NCBI GenBank assembly: GCA_963702895.1
Contig: OY969767.1
Span: 128,001 to 192,000 of the forward strand
DNA length: 64,000 nt
Direction of reading: 5' to 3'
Origin: an uncultured Elusimicrobia bacterium
GTDB taxonomy: Bacteria > Elusimicrobiota > Elusimicrobia > 2-01-FULL-59-12
Position 1 is the stretch's first letter. Every line of letters begins with the position of its first letter. The notes under the pieces are model-generated. The model was not told the DNA's origin, searched no databases, and worked only from the letters and a program-made list of their open reading frames with translations. The translations under genes were made by a program, and so were the position numbers. Of the stretch, positions 2,152 to 56,886 are shown one piece after another.

Positions 2152-2294
2152 ATGACAAACAGCCGTTAGGCTGAATTGTTTGGTTGCCCATGATCTCCCT
2201 CTCCCGCGGAACGTGGGAGAGGGCGGGGGTGAGGGCAGGTCTACGTCGAAAGGTGAGGTTGTGCCCTCACCCTTCACCCTTGTATGTCAAAATT

Positions 2295-2445
2295 CTTCTG
2301 AAGGTAGTAGACCGTCCTACCCTAGGCCCGGTGTTCGCCGAGACTGTGGAGAGCAAGGTCGCTACGTTCAGAATGCGGTTAAGCCCGAACAGTTGCCGGA
2401 GCCGCGCCAGCCGCGAGCTCGGATGATGCAAGGTCGGGCTGTACT
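2295..2445 (+). ncRNA. Putative bridge RNA of IS110-A (ends approximate)
   Basis: Stems TTCTGAA/TTCAGAA and AGCCCGA/TCGGGCT enclose loops with target-matching (TCCTACCCT, GGAGAG) and donor-matching (ACAGTTGC, ATGCAAG) segments. Confidence 0.8.
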
Positions 2446-2461
2446 GAATAAGAGGCCAATC

Positions 2462-3415
2462 ATGTCTGAAGAAATCTGGGCGGGAGTTGATATTTCGAAA
2501 GCACTATTGGAAACGGCAGTTGTGCCAGGCGGCCAACGTTGGCGGACCGCAAACAACCGGCTTGGAATTCGGCAGATCGTGCGTCGTTTGGCGACGATGC
2601 AAGTCGCCGGCGTAGTGATTGAAGCCACGGGCGGTTGGGAAAGACCACTGGTTAAGGCCTTGAACAAGGCGAGGATAGCGACTTCGGTGATCAATCCGCG
2701 ACAGGGGCGCGATTTTGCGAAAGCCACAGGGCGCTTGGCTAAGACCGATGAGATCGACGCCGGTGTGTTGGCCGATTTTGGTCAGAAACTCAAACCCCCA
2801 GCGCGACCACTGGCCGATGATCTGACCTTAGCGCTGCAGGAGCTGATGAATCGTCGACGAGATTTGGTGGAAATGTTGGTCCAGGAGCGCAACCGTCGGC
2901 AGCATGTGTCGGTCGCGATGAAGACTAAGATTGAACAGCACATCGCGTGGCTAGAAGAGCAACTGGATGAACTTGATGATCAGATCGATAAGGGACTGGG
3001 GGACCACCCTGATTTGAGTCAAAAACGGGATACGCTTCGCAGCGTCCCTGGGGTTGGCCCGGTCTTGGGGCGGACCCTCGTCGCGGAACTCCCCGAGCTT
3101 GGGAAATTGAACCGACGCCAGATTGCTAGCCTGGTGGGCGTGGCCCCTCTAAACTGGGATAGCGGTGTCATGCGGGGAACTCGGCATATATGGGGAGGGC
3201 GCTCCAGTGTGCGCTCGGCACTTTACATGGGAGTTTTGACAGCCATCCGCATCAACCCTGTGATCAAAAAGTTCTATCAACACTTGATTGCCAATGGGAA
3301 AAAAACCAAAGTCGCGCTGACAGCATGCATGCGTAAACTTCTGATTATTTTGAACACCATGGTCAGAACCAACACCCATTGGCATTGTGCAGTTCTGGAG
3401 GTTTCGCATGCCTAA
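2462..3415 (+). CDS. IS110-family DEDD transposase/recombinase
   Basis: GVDISK, IEATG, KTDEIDA (DEDD), PGVG, WDSG serine motif; ATG 2462 follows AGAGG RBS. Confidence 0.95.
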
Positions 3416-3522
3416 AAGACCCCTATTGACAACACAGTTGCTCTCCCACCTGGCGGCGGGAGAGGGGACTAAAAAGTGCAGCCGGCTTAGACGGACAGAG
3501 CCGCTTTGCTGAAGATTCCGGG

Positions 3523-3864
3523 TTAGCCGATAGCTTCCGAGCCGGTTTCACCTGTGCGGATCCGGATGACGTCCTTTAAGTCCAGCACAAAGATCTTCCC
3601 GTCACCGATCACGCCCGTATGGCCGCCTTTTTGGATGGCCTCGATCGCGGGTTTCACGAATTCCTGGTTAACGGCGATCTCCAGTTTCACTTTTTTGAGG
3701 AGACTGCCGGCTTCTTTGTGGCTCCGATACACCTCGCTGATGCCCTTCTGGCGGCCGCGTCCCATCACCTGCGAGACGGTCACCAGATGAATCTCCGCAT
3801 CTTCGAGTTTCTTTAAAACATCGTCTAAACGGTCAGGCTGGATGATCGCGATGATATATTTCAT
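3523..3864 (-). CDS. glnK: P-II nitrogen regulatory protein
   Basis: GRGRQKG, GDGKIFV, IRIRTGE motifs; adjacent to amtB. Confidence 0.93.
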   Translation of the reverse strand: MKYIIAIIQPDRLDDVLKKLEDAEIHLVTVSQVMGRGRQKGISEVYRSHKEAGSLLKKVKLEIAVNQEFVKPAIEAIQKGGHTGVIGDGKIFVLDLKDVIRIRTGETGSEAIG

Positions 3865-3876
3865 GGTGTTCTCCTC

Positions 3877-54973: not shown

Positions 54974-55047
54974 CTTTTAGTCGCTCGAAGCTGCCCCGCC
55001 GACAACCCCTTAAGCGGTCCCATGAAAAATGCTAAAACAATGTCCTT

Positions 55048-56013
55048 ATGTGGATCGTGACAGGCGGTGCGGGCTTTATCGGGAGCGCGCTTCTCTGGAA
55101 GCTCAACCAGGAGGGGATGAACGATCTCCTCGTGGTGGATGGCCTGGAGTCCTCGGACAAATGGAAAAATCTCCGCGGGAAGAAGTTTTCCGACTATCTG
55201 GAAGCGGGTGATTTCCTGAGCCGCGTCCAGGCGGGGAAAATGCCAAAGGTCCAAGGCATGGTCCATCTGGGCGCCTGCTCCTCGACCACGGAGACCAACG
55301 CTTCCTATTTAATTCAGAACAATTACGAATACACGAAGACGCTCGCGATGTGGGCGCTCTCGAAGAACATCCGTTTTGTCTACGCCTCAAGCGCTGCGAC
55401 TTATGGCGATGGGGCTTGGGGGTACAAAACAGATGACGCCACGACGATGCGCTTACAGCCCTTGAATATGTATGGCTACTCGAAGCAATTGTTTGACCAG
55501 TGGGCTCTGCAGAAGGGCGCGCTCAAGAAGCTGGTGGGCATCAAGTTTTTTAATGTCTTTGGTCCCAACGAATACCACAAGGGCGATATGCGCTCGGTGA
55601 TCGCCAAGGCGTATGAACAAATCCAGCGGGACGGCAAAGTCCGACTCTTTAAGTCGTACCGTCCGGACTACAAAGACGGGGAGCAGGTACGCGATTTTCT
55701 CTATGTCAAAGACGCCGTGAACGTGGTCTATGAGTTGATGACAGGCAAAGGATACGGCGGCCTCTATAATTTAGGGGCAGGCCACGCGCGCTCCTGGAAG
55801 GACCTCGCGCGCGCGATCTTTGCGGCCCTGGGGCGGCCGGAGCGCATCGAGTACATCGAGATGCCGGAATCCCTCCGGGCCAAGTACCAATATCACACGG
55901 AAGCCGATATGTCCTGGATGAAAGGGAAGAAACTTGCCAAGATGATGACGCTGGAAGAAGGCGTCTCGGACTACGTGCGGAACTATCTTTCAAAGGAAAA
56001 CCCCTACTTATGA
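55048..56013 (+). CDS. rfaD: ADP-L-glycero-D-manno-heptose 6-epimerase
   Basis: TGGAGFIGS, GACSSTTE, YASSAATYG, YGYSK, EYHKG. Confidence 0.95.
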   Translation: MWIVTGGAGFIGSALLWKLNQEGMNDLLVVDGLESSDKWKNLRGKKFSDYLEAGDFLSRVQAGKMPKVQGMVHLGACSSTTETNASYLIQNNYEYTKTLAMWALSKNIRFVYASSAATYGDGAWGYKTDDATTMRLQPLNMYGYSKQLFDQWALQKGALKKLVGIKFFNVFGPNEYHKGDMRSVIAKAYEQIQRDGKVRLFKSYRPDYKDGEQVRDFLYVKDAVNVVYELMTGKGYGGLYNLGAGHARSWKDLARAIFAALGRPERIEYIEMPESLRAKYQYHTEADMSWMKGKKLAKMMTLEEGVSDYVRNYLSKENPYL

Positions 56014-56600
56014 AATCCCGTGTAGCCCGCGTTGCGCGAAAGACCCGAGAAACCCAGGTTGATCTGAAGCTTAACCTCGACGGCCACGGTTCATATCGAG
56101 TTTCGACGACGATCGCGTTTCTCGATCATATGCTGGAGCTCTTTGCGAAACATGGTCCATTCGATCTTCGTGTTCAGGCCCGTGGTGACACCCACATTGA
56201 TCACCACCACCTCGTGGAGGACATTGGCATCGCGTTGGGCGAAGCCATTGCCAAGGCGGCAGGGGATAAGAAGGGCATCTGTCGCTATGGGAATTTTTAT
56301 CTTCCCATGGATGAGTCCCTGAGCTATGTGGCCCTCGATCTTTCGAACCGTCCGTACTTTGTCTGGAAAGTGAAGTGGCAGAAATCTGACATCGGAAAGT
56401 TTGACGGCCTCTTGCTTGAGCATTTCTTTGAGTCGCTGGCGGCGAGCGCCCGCATGAATCTCCATATGGCGCTCAAGTACGGCAAACAACCCCACCACAT
56501 CGCGGAAAGCCTCTTCAAAGGTTTCGCGCGCGCGCTCAGTCAGGCGGTCGCGCGCGGCGGCCGATGGAAGGGCATCCCCTCCACCAAAGGCAAGCTCTAG
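56010..56600 (+). CDS. hisB: Imidazoleglycerol-phosphate dehydratase
   Basis: RKTRET, FLDHML, DHHHLVED, HHIAE, PSTKG. Confidence 0.96.
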   Translation: MKSRVARVARKTRETQVDLKLNLDGHGSYRVSTTIAFLDHMLELFAKHGPFDLRVQARGDTHIDHHHLVEDIGIALGEAIAKAAGDKKGICRYGNFYLPMDESLSYVALDLSNRPYFVWKVKWQKSDIGKFDGLLLEHFFESLAASARMNLHMALKYGKQPHHIAESLFKGFARALSQAVARGGRWKGIPSTKGKL

Positions 56601-56671
56601 GCGTAGTCCGACCGCAGTGTGTCGGATCCATCATGGTAGACCTCGGCTAACCGGGAAAGTTCAGTTATGCC

Positions 56672-56800
56672 GTCACCCCGGCATGCCTTAAGCCGGCCCT
56701 CCAGACTACCGGCGGGCCGTCCGCCCTGCCATGTGGCGGACGGGGTCTATCAGACGTACAAAACCTGATGGATCCCCTGCTTACAACCGCAGGGGATGAC
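56672..56800. repeat. REP-B doublet with nested insert; partial arms at about 56624-56655 and 56855-56879
   Basis: Inverted homolog of 20990-21118. Confidence 0.85.
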
Positions 56801-56886
56801 GGCACTAAAAAGTGCGACGGGTTCAGACGGAGAAATTTGGCCAACCGCAGTTTTCGGGCTAACGACATGCCGGGGTGGCGGTTTTA

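What the first reader, a model, noticed from the sequence alone, without database searches (positions are those of the whole stretch)
2197..56879. Two orthogonal RNA-guided elements divide two REP families between them
Seen: 4 REP-A doublets and about 10 REP-B doublets in 64 kb; all three IS110 insertions lie inside REPs, element A only in REP-A and element B only in REP-B, each matching its own guide. No REP-associated tyrosine transposase is in the window. Inference: REPs act as replenishable safe-harbour landing pads, and the two recombinase/RNA pairs form a naturally orthogonal set.
Basis: partly seen in the sequence, partly recalled or inferred. Interest (0 to 1): 0.7.

Follow-up and report, generated by a model that had tools for sequence, protein, structure and literature searches.

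The report
RNA-guided insertion elements sharing genome repeats
Several small jumping genes in this bacterium each carry a guide RNA that aims them at a different short repeated sequence between genes; the mechanism is known, but one target is a long-unexplained triple-helix-type repeat, and the repeats seem tied to small nucleases rather than to the enzyme first suspected.

Summary
Observation confirmed and extended. The window holds 4 REP-A doublets, 10 REP-B doublets and three IS110 copies (two A, one B), each in its cognate repeat. Genome-wide, A is in REP-A 3/3 and B in REP-B 5/5. A third, IS1111-type family C (5/5) and a group II intron (3/3) hit the terminal repeat of a MITE that carries some doublets. 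0/25 copies of other IS families lie in these repeats.

Guides fit cognate sites (A 9-10/12, B 13/14) and not the other's (3-4), so the pairs are orthogonal in DNA target; protein-RNA exclusivity is untested. B uses only a subtype of about 41 sites, and A's match is loose.

REP-B is the known CGTC/SRM repeat, with two flanked ssnA-like genes. REP-A is a long-loop BoxC/triplex-type repeat that flanks the only DUF559 gene. No intact RAYT was found.

A coordinated division is not supported: A's relatives elsewhere target REP-B-type repeats, and C and the intron overlap. IS110 targeting of REPs is published (IS621, ISPpu9/10). The scan already noted C in this MITE, REP-targeting IS110s and the DUF559-BoxC link on other DNA. 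New member of a known kind.

The parts
2281..3440 (+). IS110 element A, copy 1 (1160 bp; CT core at 2279-2280 and 3441-3442)
   Evidence: identical to the other two genome copies
2281..2461 (+). Left non-coding end of A, predicted bridge RNA: left target guide 2316-2323, right target guide 2348-2353, left donor guide 2389-2397, right donor guide 2426-2432
   Evidence: sequence, fold, matches, guide changes in step with target in relatives; transcription not shown
2462..3415 (+). Recombinase A, 317 aa
   Evidence: PF01548+PF02371; NF033542 204 bits
2197..3466 (.). REP-A (BoxC-type) doublet split by A copy 1
2166..3526 (.). MITE-like unit carrying the doublet, with TTAG repeated at 2166-2169 and 3523-3526; the right copy overlaps the stop codon of the P-II gene
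   Evidence: P-II ORF ends at 3523
5342..5487 (.). Empty REP-A doublet with an inserted hairpin module
39931..40038 (.). Empty REP-A doublet
51971..53130 (-). IS110 element A, copy 2 (ORF 52949-51996) in a REP-A doublet spanning about 51941-53212
24301..25547 (+). IS110 element B (1247 bp), inserted in the second unit of the REP-B doublet that starts at 24236
   Evidence: identical in all 5 genome copies
24301..24505 (+). Left non-coding end of B, predicted bridge RNA: left target guide 24367-24375, right target guide 24390-24396, left donor guide 24430-24438, right donor guide 24455-24461
   Evidence: no close relatives for a covariation test
24506..25531 (+). Recombinase B, 341 aa (alternative ATG at 24479); best relative found is 31.5% identical
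6596..6680 (.). Empty REP-B (CGTC/SRM) doublet
16174..16292 (.). Empty REP-B doublet plus a third unit whose end carries the motif targeted by family C
20990..21119 (.). Empty REP-B doublet with an inserted hairpin module
22916..22985 (.). Empty REP-B doublet
29200..29268 (.). Empty REP-B doublet
38091..38174 (.). Empty REP-B doublet
44832..44905 (.). Diverged REP-B doublet
46568..46646 (.). Diverged REP-B doublet
56647..56862 (.). Empty 208-bp MITE-like unit carrying a REP-B doublet (56671-56800), with inverted ends and CTAA repeated on both sides; an unoccupied site of the kind used by family C and the intron

Best explanation
A and B are intact, distantly related IS110-group bridge-RNA recombinase elements. 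Each is inferred to excise as a circle, form a junction promoter, express an RNA from its left end, and use that RNA's two loops to pair with its own junction and with a 12-14 bp target. A's target is a fixed base in a BoxC/triplex-type repeat (REP-A); B's target is one hairpin subtype of the CGTC/SRM repeat (REP-B). A third IS1111-type family (C, two variants, guides in reversed order at the 3' end) and a group II intron aim at the inverted end of a 146-240 bp MITE that carries some REP doublets. Each lineage has independently acquired a guide for an abundant intergenic repeat, which gives many low-cost sites; the apparent division is the sum of these separate choices. The repeat supply is most likely kept up by ssnA-like GIY-YIG genes (REP-B), a DUF559 nuclease gene (REP-A) and MITE transposition, not by RAYT. 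SHOWN here: element ends, cognate insertion, guide/target complementarity, guide-target co-change in relatives of A and between C1 and C2, nuclease-repeat adjacency, MITE 4-bp duplications. INFERRED from IS621/ISEc11 work: circle, promoter, RNA expression, recombination chemistry. INFERRED more weakly: that the nucleases copy the repeats.
For: 13 IS110 genes in three groups; A 3/3 in REP-A, B 5/5 in REP-B, C 5/5 in MITE-type ends, 0/25 IS1380, IS256, IS4 and IS30 copies in any of them; these repeats cover about 1.1%, 2.9% and 0.6% of approximate non-coding DNA. Guide fit: A 9, 10, 10 of 12; B 13/14 at all five; C1 10/13 twice; C2 11, 12, 12 of 13; across families 1-4; C1 and C2 guides score 7-8 on each other's sites. 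Donor loops fit own junction (A 8/9+6/7; B 7/9+6/7) and not the other's (4/9+1/7; 4/9+3/7). In five A relatives the donor loop is conserved while the target guides change with the flanking target. An A relative in G060 lies in the same repeat type at the same position with a matching guide (two contig ends). C's target loop folds as predicted with reversed guide order, as described for IS1111 (PMC11187229). Copies of A, B and C1 are identical within each family, consistent with recent movement. ssnA-like genes at C1:554270 and C1:543327 are bracketed by REP-B; the single DUF559 gene sits in a REP-A array. MITE: 25 of 31 end pairs with YTAR on both sides have identical 4-mers, versus 8.8 on average and at most 19 in 10,000 permutations; 8 of 23 units have a sister at least 96% alike.
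Against: A's left guide matches only 5 contiguous bases: 12 better-matching sites are unoccupied and 127 non-REP sites match as well as the used ones, so the guide alone does not explain A's restriction. Numbers are small (3, 5, 5) and may not be independent: three B copies share a near-identical left flank. B has no relative above 31.5% identity, so its guides rest on complementarity alone, and its target loop folds differently in the MFE model. C's right donor guide fits poorly (by eye). No RNA, circle or activity data. No transposase with the MITE's ends was found. Only 35 of 206 REP loci lie in a recognisable MITE unit. Some end pairs overlap.
Confidence: 0.85

Rival explanations
1. Selected niche partitioning: co-resident RNA-guided elements have diverged in guide and in protein-RNA recognition so as to avoid each other's sites, forming a mutually exclusive set on a renewable supply of repeats.
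For: Four guide sets (A, B, C1, C2) use non-identical targets; C1 and C2 are 88% identical proteins with guides that differ in step with their sites; RNA ends share no sequence.
Against: C and the group II intron insert 4 nt apart in the same repeat end; A's relatives L041 and L042 target REP-B-type hairpins; ISPpu9 and ISPpu10 use the same base of one REP (PMC1525189); one genome cannot separate selection from chance.
Confidence: 0.2
2. A needs a second determinant beyond base pairing, such as the target hairpin or triplex, or the MITE context, as reported for ISPpu10.
For: Weak left-guide match. Of 20 REP-A sites with the 9-bp core match, 3 of 6 MITE-type sites are occupied and 0 of 14 others (classed by eye; p=0.018, post hoc). 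Precedent in bioRxiv 10.64898/2026.03.19.712850 (abstract and Discussion read).
Against: The 35 non-REP 9-bp matches all fall in my approximate coding mask, so survival alone could remove them; a bulge-tolerant pairing could also favour the used sites; n=3.
Confidence: 0.35
3. Survivorship: the elements insert more widely, and only copies in intergenic repeats persist.
For: Most alternative matches for A lie in coding DNA.
Against: 0 of 25 copies of four other IS families under the same selection lie in the repeats; each family uses one exact base; 41 of 42 exact 13-bp B targets are in REP-B.
Confidence: 0.07
4. Hitch-hiking: one insertion per family was copied as part of a loaded MITE or REP unit, so the repeated association reflects few events.
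For: B copies at C1:90298, 445365 and 504670 share the same left flank; two align over 1393 bp at 99.7%.
Against: Spacers and right flanks differ among A copies and among B copies; empty sister units exist; at least three distinct B contexts.
Confidence: 0.1

Closest known systems
IS621 of E. coli (IS110 group, bridge RNA; PMC11208160, passages read)
   Same: DEDD + serine-domain recombinase, long left non-coding end, CT core (element A), two guide loops, insertion into REP elements.
   Different: Different repeat families as targets; B has a C/T-C core and no relative above 31.5%; no experiment here.
ISPpu9 and ISPpu10 of P. putida KT2440; ISPa11; ISRm19 (PMC1525189, first sixth and passages read; PMC12288879, passages)
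   Same: 100% of copies in REPs at a fixed base; two IS110 families co-resident in one genome.
   Different: ISPpu9 and ISPpu10 share one site of one REP; here A and B use two unrelated repeat families.
IS1111-group seekRNA elements (ISEc11, ISPa11; PMC11187229, passages) and IS4321/IS5075 (seen as reference titles only)
   Same: Family C has sub-terminal inverted repeats, a long 3' non-coding end, top-strand guide before bottom-strand guide, and targets another element's terminal repeat.
   Different: The target is a MITE end; the target loop overlaps the last codons of the ORF; two variants with different left guides co-exist.
CGTC REPs (PMC3733652, passages) and Ssn-related motifs with ssnA (PMC11893778, abstract and sections 7, 10, 12, 17)
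   Same: REP-B has the CGTC tag, stem and CCA-type tail, forms head-to-head dimers, has no RAYT partner, and brackets 95-97 aa GIY-YIG genes.
   Different: Part of the doublets ride in a MITE and carry inserted hairpin modules; the Ssn paper's main text does not mention IS110; cleavage not tested here.
BoxC / PIT / TM(ECO) intrastrand triplex repeats (PMC4666352, passages)
   Same: Pyrimidine strand, hairpin and repeated purine strand with the same arms; intergenic; inverted doublets.
   Different: First loop is longer (0 strict consensus matches, 32 with loops up to 16 nt). That paper found no transposase or integrase remnants near the E. coli motifs, whereas here an IS110 inserts in the motif and a DUF559 gene is embedded in an array of it.

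Membership tests
IS110 group (IS621-like) - elements A and B | DEDD_Tnp_IS110 and Transposase_20 domains in one ORF | tested here: met
   D, E and DxxD motifs found in both; serine motif by pattern in B and by eye in A
IS110 group (IS621-like) - elements A and B | Left non-coding end longer than right; short core, no long terminal repeats | tested here: met
   left ends 181 and 205 nt, right ends 25 and 16 nt; cores CT and C
IS110 group (IS621-like) - elements A and B | RNA with guides for both strands of target and donor | tested here: met
   co-change with targets in A relatives; loose for A's left guide; complementarity only for B
IS110 group (IS621-like) - elements A and B | RNA is expressed, binds the recombinase and directs recombination through a circle | not testable with these tools
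   no RNA holder listed; plausible junction promoters with 18-nt spacing only
IS1111 group - family C (outside the window) | Sub-terminal inverted repeats, long 3' non-coding end, reversed guide order | tested here: met
   NF033542 229 bits
IS1111 group - family C (outside the window) | Donor-binding guides match the circle junction | tested here: inconclusive
   left donor guide fits, right donor guide fits only in part (read by eye)
RAYT-associated GTAG REP / REPIN system | Intact Y1/HUH transposase gene flanked by the REPs | tested here: not met
   NF047646: no match; PF01797: one 55-position partial hit in an 89-aa frame with no REP within 500 nt; genome 98% complete, one contig
CGTC REP / Ssn-related motif - REP-B | Fits the published degenerate SRM pattern and is enriched | tested here: met
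   147 matches versus 19-35 in three simulated genomes; 9 in the window; 2 of 5 B sites match (the other three carry an inserted module)
Ssn nuclease family | Small single-domain GIY-YIG gene flanked by SRMs on both sides | tested here: met
   95 and 97 aa; inverted REP-B on both sides; pattern met on both sides for one gene and on one side for the other; 57-58% identical to a Neisseria gonorrhoeae frame
Ssn nuclease family | CDD cd10448 assignment and site-specific ssDNA cleavage | not testable with these tools
   no CDD library; NCBIfam gave no specific family
BoxC / TM(ECO) - REP-A | Published consensus with a 3-6 nt first loop | tested here: not met
   0 strict matches; 32 with loop up to 16 nt and slightly relaxed arms: a long-loop variant
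BoxC / TM(ECO) - REP-A | Forms an intrastrand triplex | not testable with these tools
   needs CD/NMR or chemical probing
MITE | Short, non-coding, terminal inverted repeats, target-site duplication, dispersed similar copies | tested here: met
MITE | Autonomous partner transposase with the same ends | tested here: inconclusive
   none found in this genome; motif rare in 10 relatives

The most novel reading that the evidence does not exclude
This genome shows a three-tier economy of selfish DNA. Two non-HUH nuclease cassettes (ssnA with CGTC repeats, DUF559 with BoxC-type triplex repeats) generate repeats, a MITE spreads doublets of both, and at least four RNA-guided elements (A, B, C1/C2, a group II intron) each claim one address on this renewable scaffold. 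A, B and C are mutually exclusive protein-RNA pairs, and A reads the triplex or hairpin structure as well as the sequence. This would give BoxC repeats both a producer and a parasite, and would supply a natural set of non-cross-reacting bridge recombinases.
Probability: 0.25. Interest if true: 0.68.

Novelty: new member of a known kind. Interest (0 to 1): 0.4.

Why it matters
The mechanism is known, but the genome is an unusually complete natural test set: three distantly related bridge/seek recombinases (24-30% identical) with readable guides, known sites and many empty targets, ready for swap assays that would show whether such enzymes can be multiplexed. B is far from any relative found and may have a non-CT core. 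An IS110 inserting at a fixed base of a BoxC-type repeat was not found in one paper search or one scan look-up. It bears on the open question of where these repeats come from and what uses them.

Tried and rejected
RAYT as the source of the repeats: rejected for this genome. Rfam: no family at gathering score in the window. Relatives of B: one weak hit in genome contigs, 31.5% at best in plasmids, 4 of 400 phylum genomes at 25-31%, so no covariation test was possible. Relatives of A in viral contigs: none; six pattern hits there had no IS110. MITE transposase: no PF13546 hit; the IS1380, IS256, IS4 and IS30 families have other ends and other duplications; the long units between MITE ends that I read out held a group II intron, and two further long pairs were not examined. 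My first loose detector for BoxC-type flanks failed (1 of 29 both sides) and was replaced by a structure-based one; a strict pattern gave 13 of 30 including this genome's own locus. The repeat mask scored the three introns as outside the MITE end because the intron splits the motif; they were placed by sequence instead. Intron exon-binding sites were not identified. Sequencing runs: no RNA holder listed. One DNA run (X1) holds identical pieces of B without the flanking genes; its one joint skipping B is short and mismatched and fits an empty sister repeat, so it is no evidence of excision. The bridge-recombinase preprint 10.1101/2025.05.14.653916 (passages) gave nothing on cross-use of RNAs. 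Supplementary files were not read; ISfinder-type target lists there could already hold a BoxC- or SRM-targeting IS110.
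Full report
Observation. The window is G000:C1:128001-192000 of a 2.72-Mb, single-contig, 98%-complete genome. Earlier scan notes call it Elusimicrobiota; I did not check this. Three window ORFs carry both IS110 domains. Element A (1160 bp) lies at 2281-3440 (+) and 51971-53130 (-), element B (1247 bp) at 24301-25547 (+). The two recombinases are 24% identical. Cutting the elements out restores intact repeats. Both repeat families are far above a simulated genome: 288 versus 3 short REP-B units and 184 versus 0 REP-A hairpin matches. No tyrosine transposase was found among the 58 ORFs scanned.

Genome-wide test. The genome has 13 IS110 genes: 3 of A, 5 of B and 5 of a third family C in two variants, C1 and C2, 88% identical. 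A is in REP-A 3 of 3 times and B in REP-B 5 of 5 times, always at the same base; C is in a third motif 5 of 5 times. As a control, 0 of 25 copies of IS1380-, IS256-, IS4- and IS30-like elements lie in any of the three (these family names come from my reading of the proteins and ends, and only the IS4-like one has a Pfam hit). The three targets cover about 1.1%, 2.9% and 0.6% of the approximate non-coding DNA. The copies may not all be independent, because three B copies share a left flank.

Guides. B's left end matches its target at 13 of 14 positions at all five sites. 41 of 42 exact 13-bp targets lie in REP-B, and 38 REP-B copies with a variant arm are all empty. So B addresses one subtype, not the family. 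A matches at 9, 10 and 10 of 12. Twelve better-matching sites are empty and 127 non-REP sites match at 10 of 12, so pairing alone does not explain A. Either lethal insertions in genes are lost (all 35 non-REP 9-bp matches fall in my coding mask) or a structural feature counts, as reported for ISPpu10 (preprint; abstract and Discussion read). Among 20 REP-A sites with the 9-bp match, 3 of 6 MITE-type ones and 0 of 14 others are filled (classed by eye; p=0.018 post hoc). Cross-family scores are 1-4, and the donor loops of A and B fit only their own junctions. A's guide assignment is supported by five metagenomic relatives (40-51% identity) whose donor loop is conserved while the target guides change with the flank. 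Two of them, L041 and L042, sit in REP-B-type hairpins. A relative in G060 sits in a REP-A-type repeat at the same position, seen on two separate contig ends. The other relatives examined use other targets. For C, the target loop begins in the last codons of the ORF and carries the guides in reversed order, the IS1111 arrangement (PMC11187229, passages). C1 scores 10 of 13 at its two sites, C2 11-12 at its three, and each scores 7-8 at the other's.

What the repeats are. REP-B is the CGTC class, which is reported to lack a RAYT (PMC3733652, passages), and fits the Ssn-related motif (PMC11893778, section 17): 147 matches versus 19-35 in three simulated genomes. Two 95-97 aa GIY-YIG genes are bracketed by inverted REP-B, the ssnA arrangement. 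SsnA is shown there to cut single-stranded DNA near its motif; a role in spreading the repeat is only proposed. REP-A has the arms of the BoxC/TM triplex repeat (PMC4666352, passages) with a longer loop: 0 strict and 32 relaxed matches. The only DUF559 gene lies in an array of REP-A. In 300 other genomes of the phylum, a REP-A pattern occurs in 29 of 47 with DUF559 and 24 of 253 without; at 10 or more copies the counts are 12 of 47 and 6 of 253. Kin are not independent, and the gene's own flanks inflate the first count. Of 29 DUF559 loci examined (of 68 found), 18 have the motif on both sides and 24 on at least one, versus 7 of 269 control windows. In 10 of 31 plasmid-collection hits fetched, 8 have it on at least one side and 3 on both. 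E. coli ycjD (DUF559) has a TM motif about 170 bp downstream. Two paper searches for DUF559 with palindromic or inverted repeats listed nothing on this link (listings only), but the scan holds 73 findings with these words, and the eight shown all report it. No intact RAYT exists here.

A carrier above the repeats. C's target is the inverted end of 146-243 bp units that carry REP-A or REP-B doublets. In 25 of 31 end pairs with YTAR on both sides the 4-mers are identical, against a permutation mean of 8.8 and a maximum of 19 (some pairs overlap; 23 distinct units). Without the YTAR filter the counts are 30 of 226 pairs with a REP inside and 10 of 2716 without. Eight of 23 units have a sister at least 96% alike. 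Only 35 of 206 REP loci, and 6 of the 13 IS110 sites, were placed in such a unit by the automatic test, against 1 of 300 random positions. A group II intron (3 copies) inserts in the same end, 4 nt from C's site. No transposase with these ends was found. The scan had noted C in this MITE, and a MITE-like element nearby, in another window of this genome.

Safe harbour and replenishment. All three window insertions are intergenic. B lies within a tad/Flp pilus gene cluster; in 3 of 3 relatives checked the two flanking genes are adjacent and no REP motif lies between them. The repeat is therefore a lineage-specific gain, which fits turnover but also means the site is inside a probable operon. Nothing here shows that new repeats are being made.

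Mechanism and comparison. The best reading is independent acquisition of guides for abundant intergenic repeats by ordinary bridge/seek-RNA elements (PMC11208160, passages). IS110 insertion into REPs, at 100% of copies and a fixed base, was described for ISPa11, ISPpu9, ISPpu10 and ISRm19 (PMC1525189, first sixth and passages). ISPpu9 and ISPpu10 share one site, so co-resident elements need not divide targets. DNA-level orthogonality follows from RNA guidance; protein-RNA exclusivity is likely, given 24% identity and unrelated RNA ends, but untested. The scan holds several REP- and MITE-targeting IS110 notes from other genomes. What I did not find elsewhere is an IS110 targeting a BoxC-type repeat (0 papers; 0 scan findings) or a look-alike of B. 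These searches are narrow, and supplements were not read.

Verdict. Real, tidy and richer than reported, but a new member of a known kind. Interest 0.40.

Noticed in passing
G000:C1:229533, 463116, 1961796: Three copies of a 1882-bp group II intron with an intact reverse-transcriptase ORF, each inserted in the MITE's inverted end 4 nt from the site used by IS110 family C.
   Followed up: partly
window 21020-21095, 5412-5455, 56700-56750 and many genome sites: Small hairpin modules are inserted in the loops of both REP-A and REP-B copies; similar modules lie beside tRNA-like repeats.
   Followed up: no
G000:C1:205875, 580617, 1652975, 1700967, 1813193, 1813505: Six further small GIY-YIG genes or fragments sit among tRNA genes or tRNA-like repeats rather than REP-B (judged by eye); one has an internal stop.
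   Followed up: no
G000:C1:826536-828353 and six more copies: An IS1380-like element (7 identical copies) carries a REP-B unit just inside its left end, another route by which the repeat spreads.
   Followed up: no
window 3523-3526: The duplicated 4-mer of the MITE around A copy 1 overlaps the stop codon of the P-II gene; YTAR targets contain stop codons.
   Followed up: no
G000:C1:416569-417909 versus 671416-672757: C1 and C2 are identical over the first roughly 330 bp and diverge after it, suggesting a chimeric origin by recombination.
   Followed up: no
window 31700-35120: Lower-GC-looking island with a YccF gene, a weak GIY-YIG-like ORF and a Fic/DUF4172 gene; it is bounded by a duplicated 62-bp end of the upstream redoxin gene (31225 and 35057) and holds three copies of a 47-bp repeat, like an integration scar.
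   Followed up: no
window 5504-20913: Hydrogenase maturation genes (hypE, hypD, hypF), a Hox-type diaphorase/hydrogenase cluster and pyruvate:ferredoxin oxidoreductase.
   Followed up: no
G000:C1:390719-390889: Truncated Y1/HUH transposase-like frame (89 aa) with no REP nearby.
   Followed up: yes
G006 loci L087, L091, L095: The MITE end motif occurs right at contig ends in a related genome, as expected for collapsed repeats.
   Followed up: partly
L039:2900-3540: A CRISPR-like array lies directly behind a partial IS110 gene in a cyanobacterial MAG.
   Followed up: no
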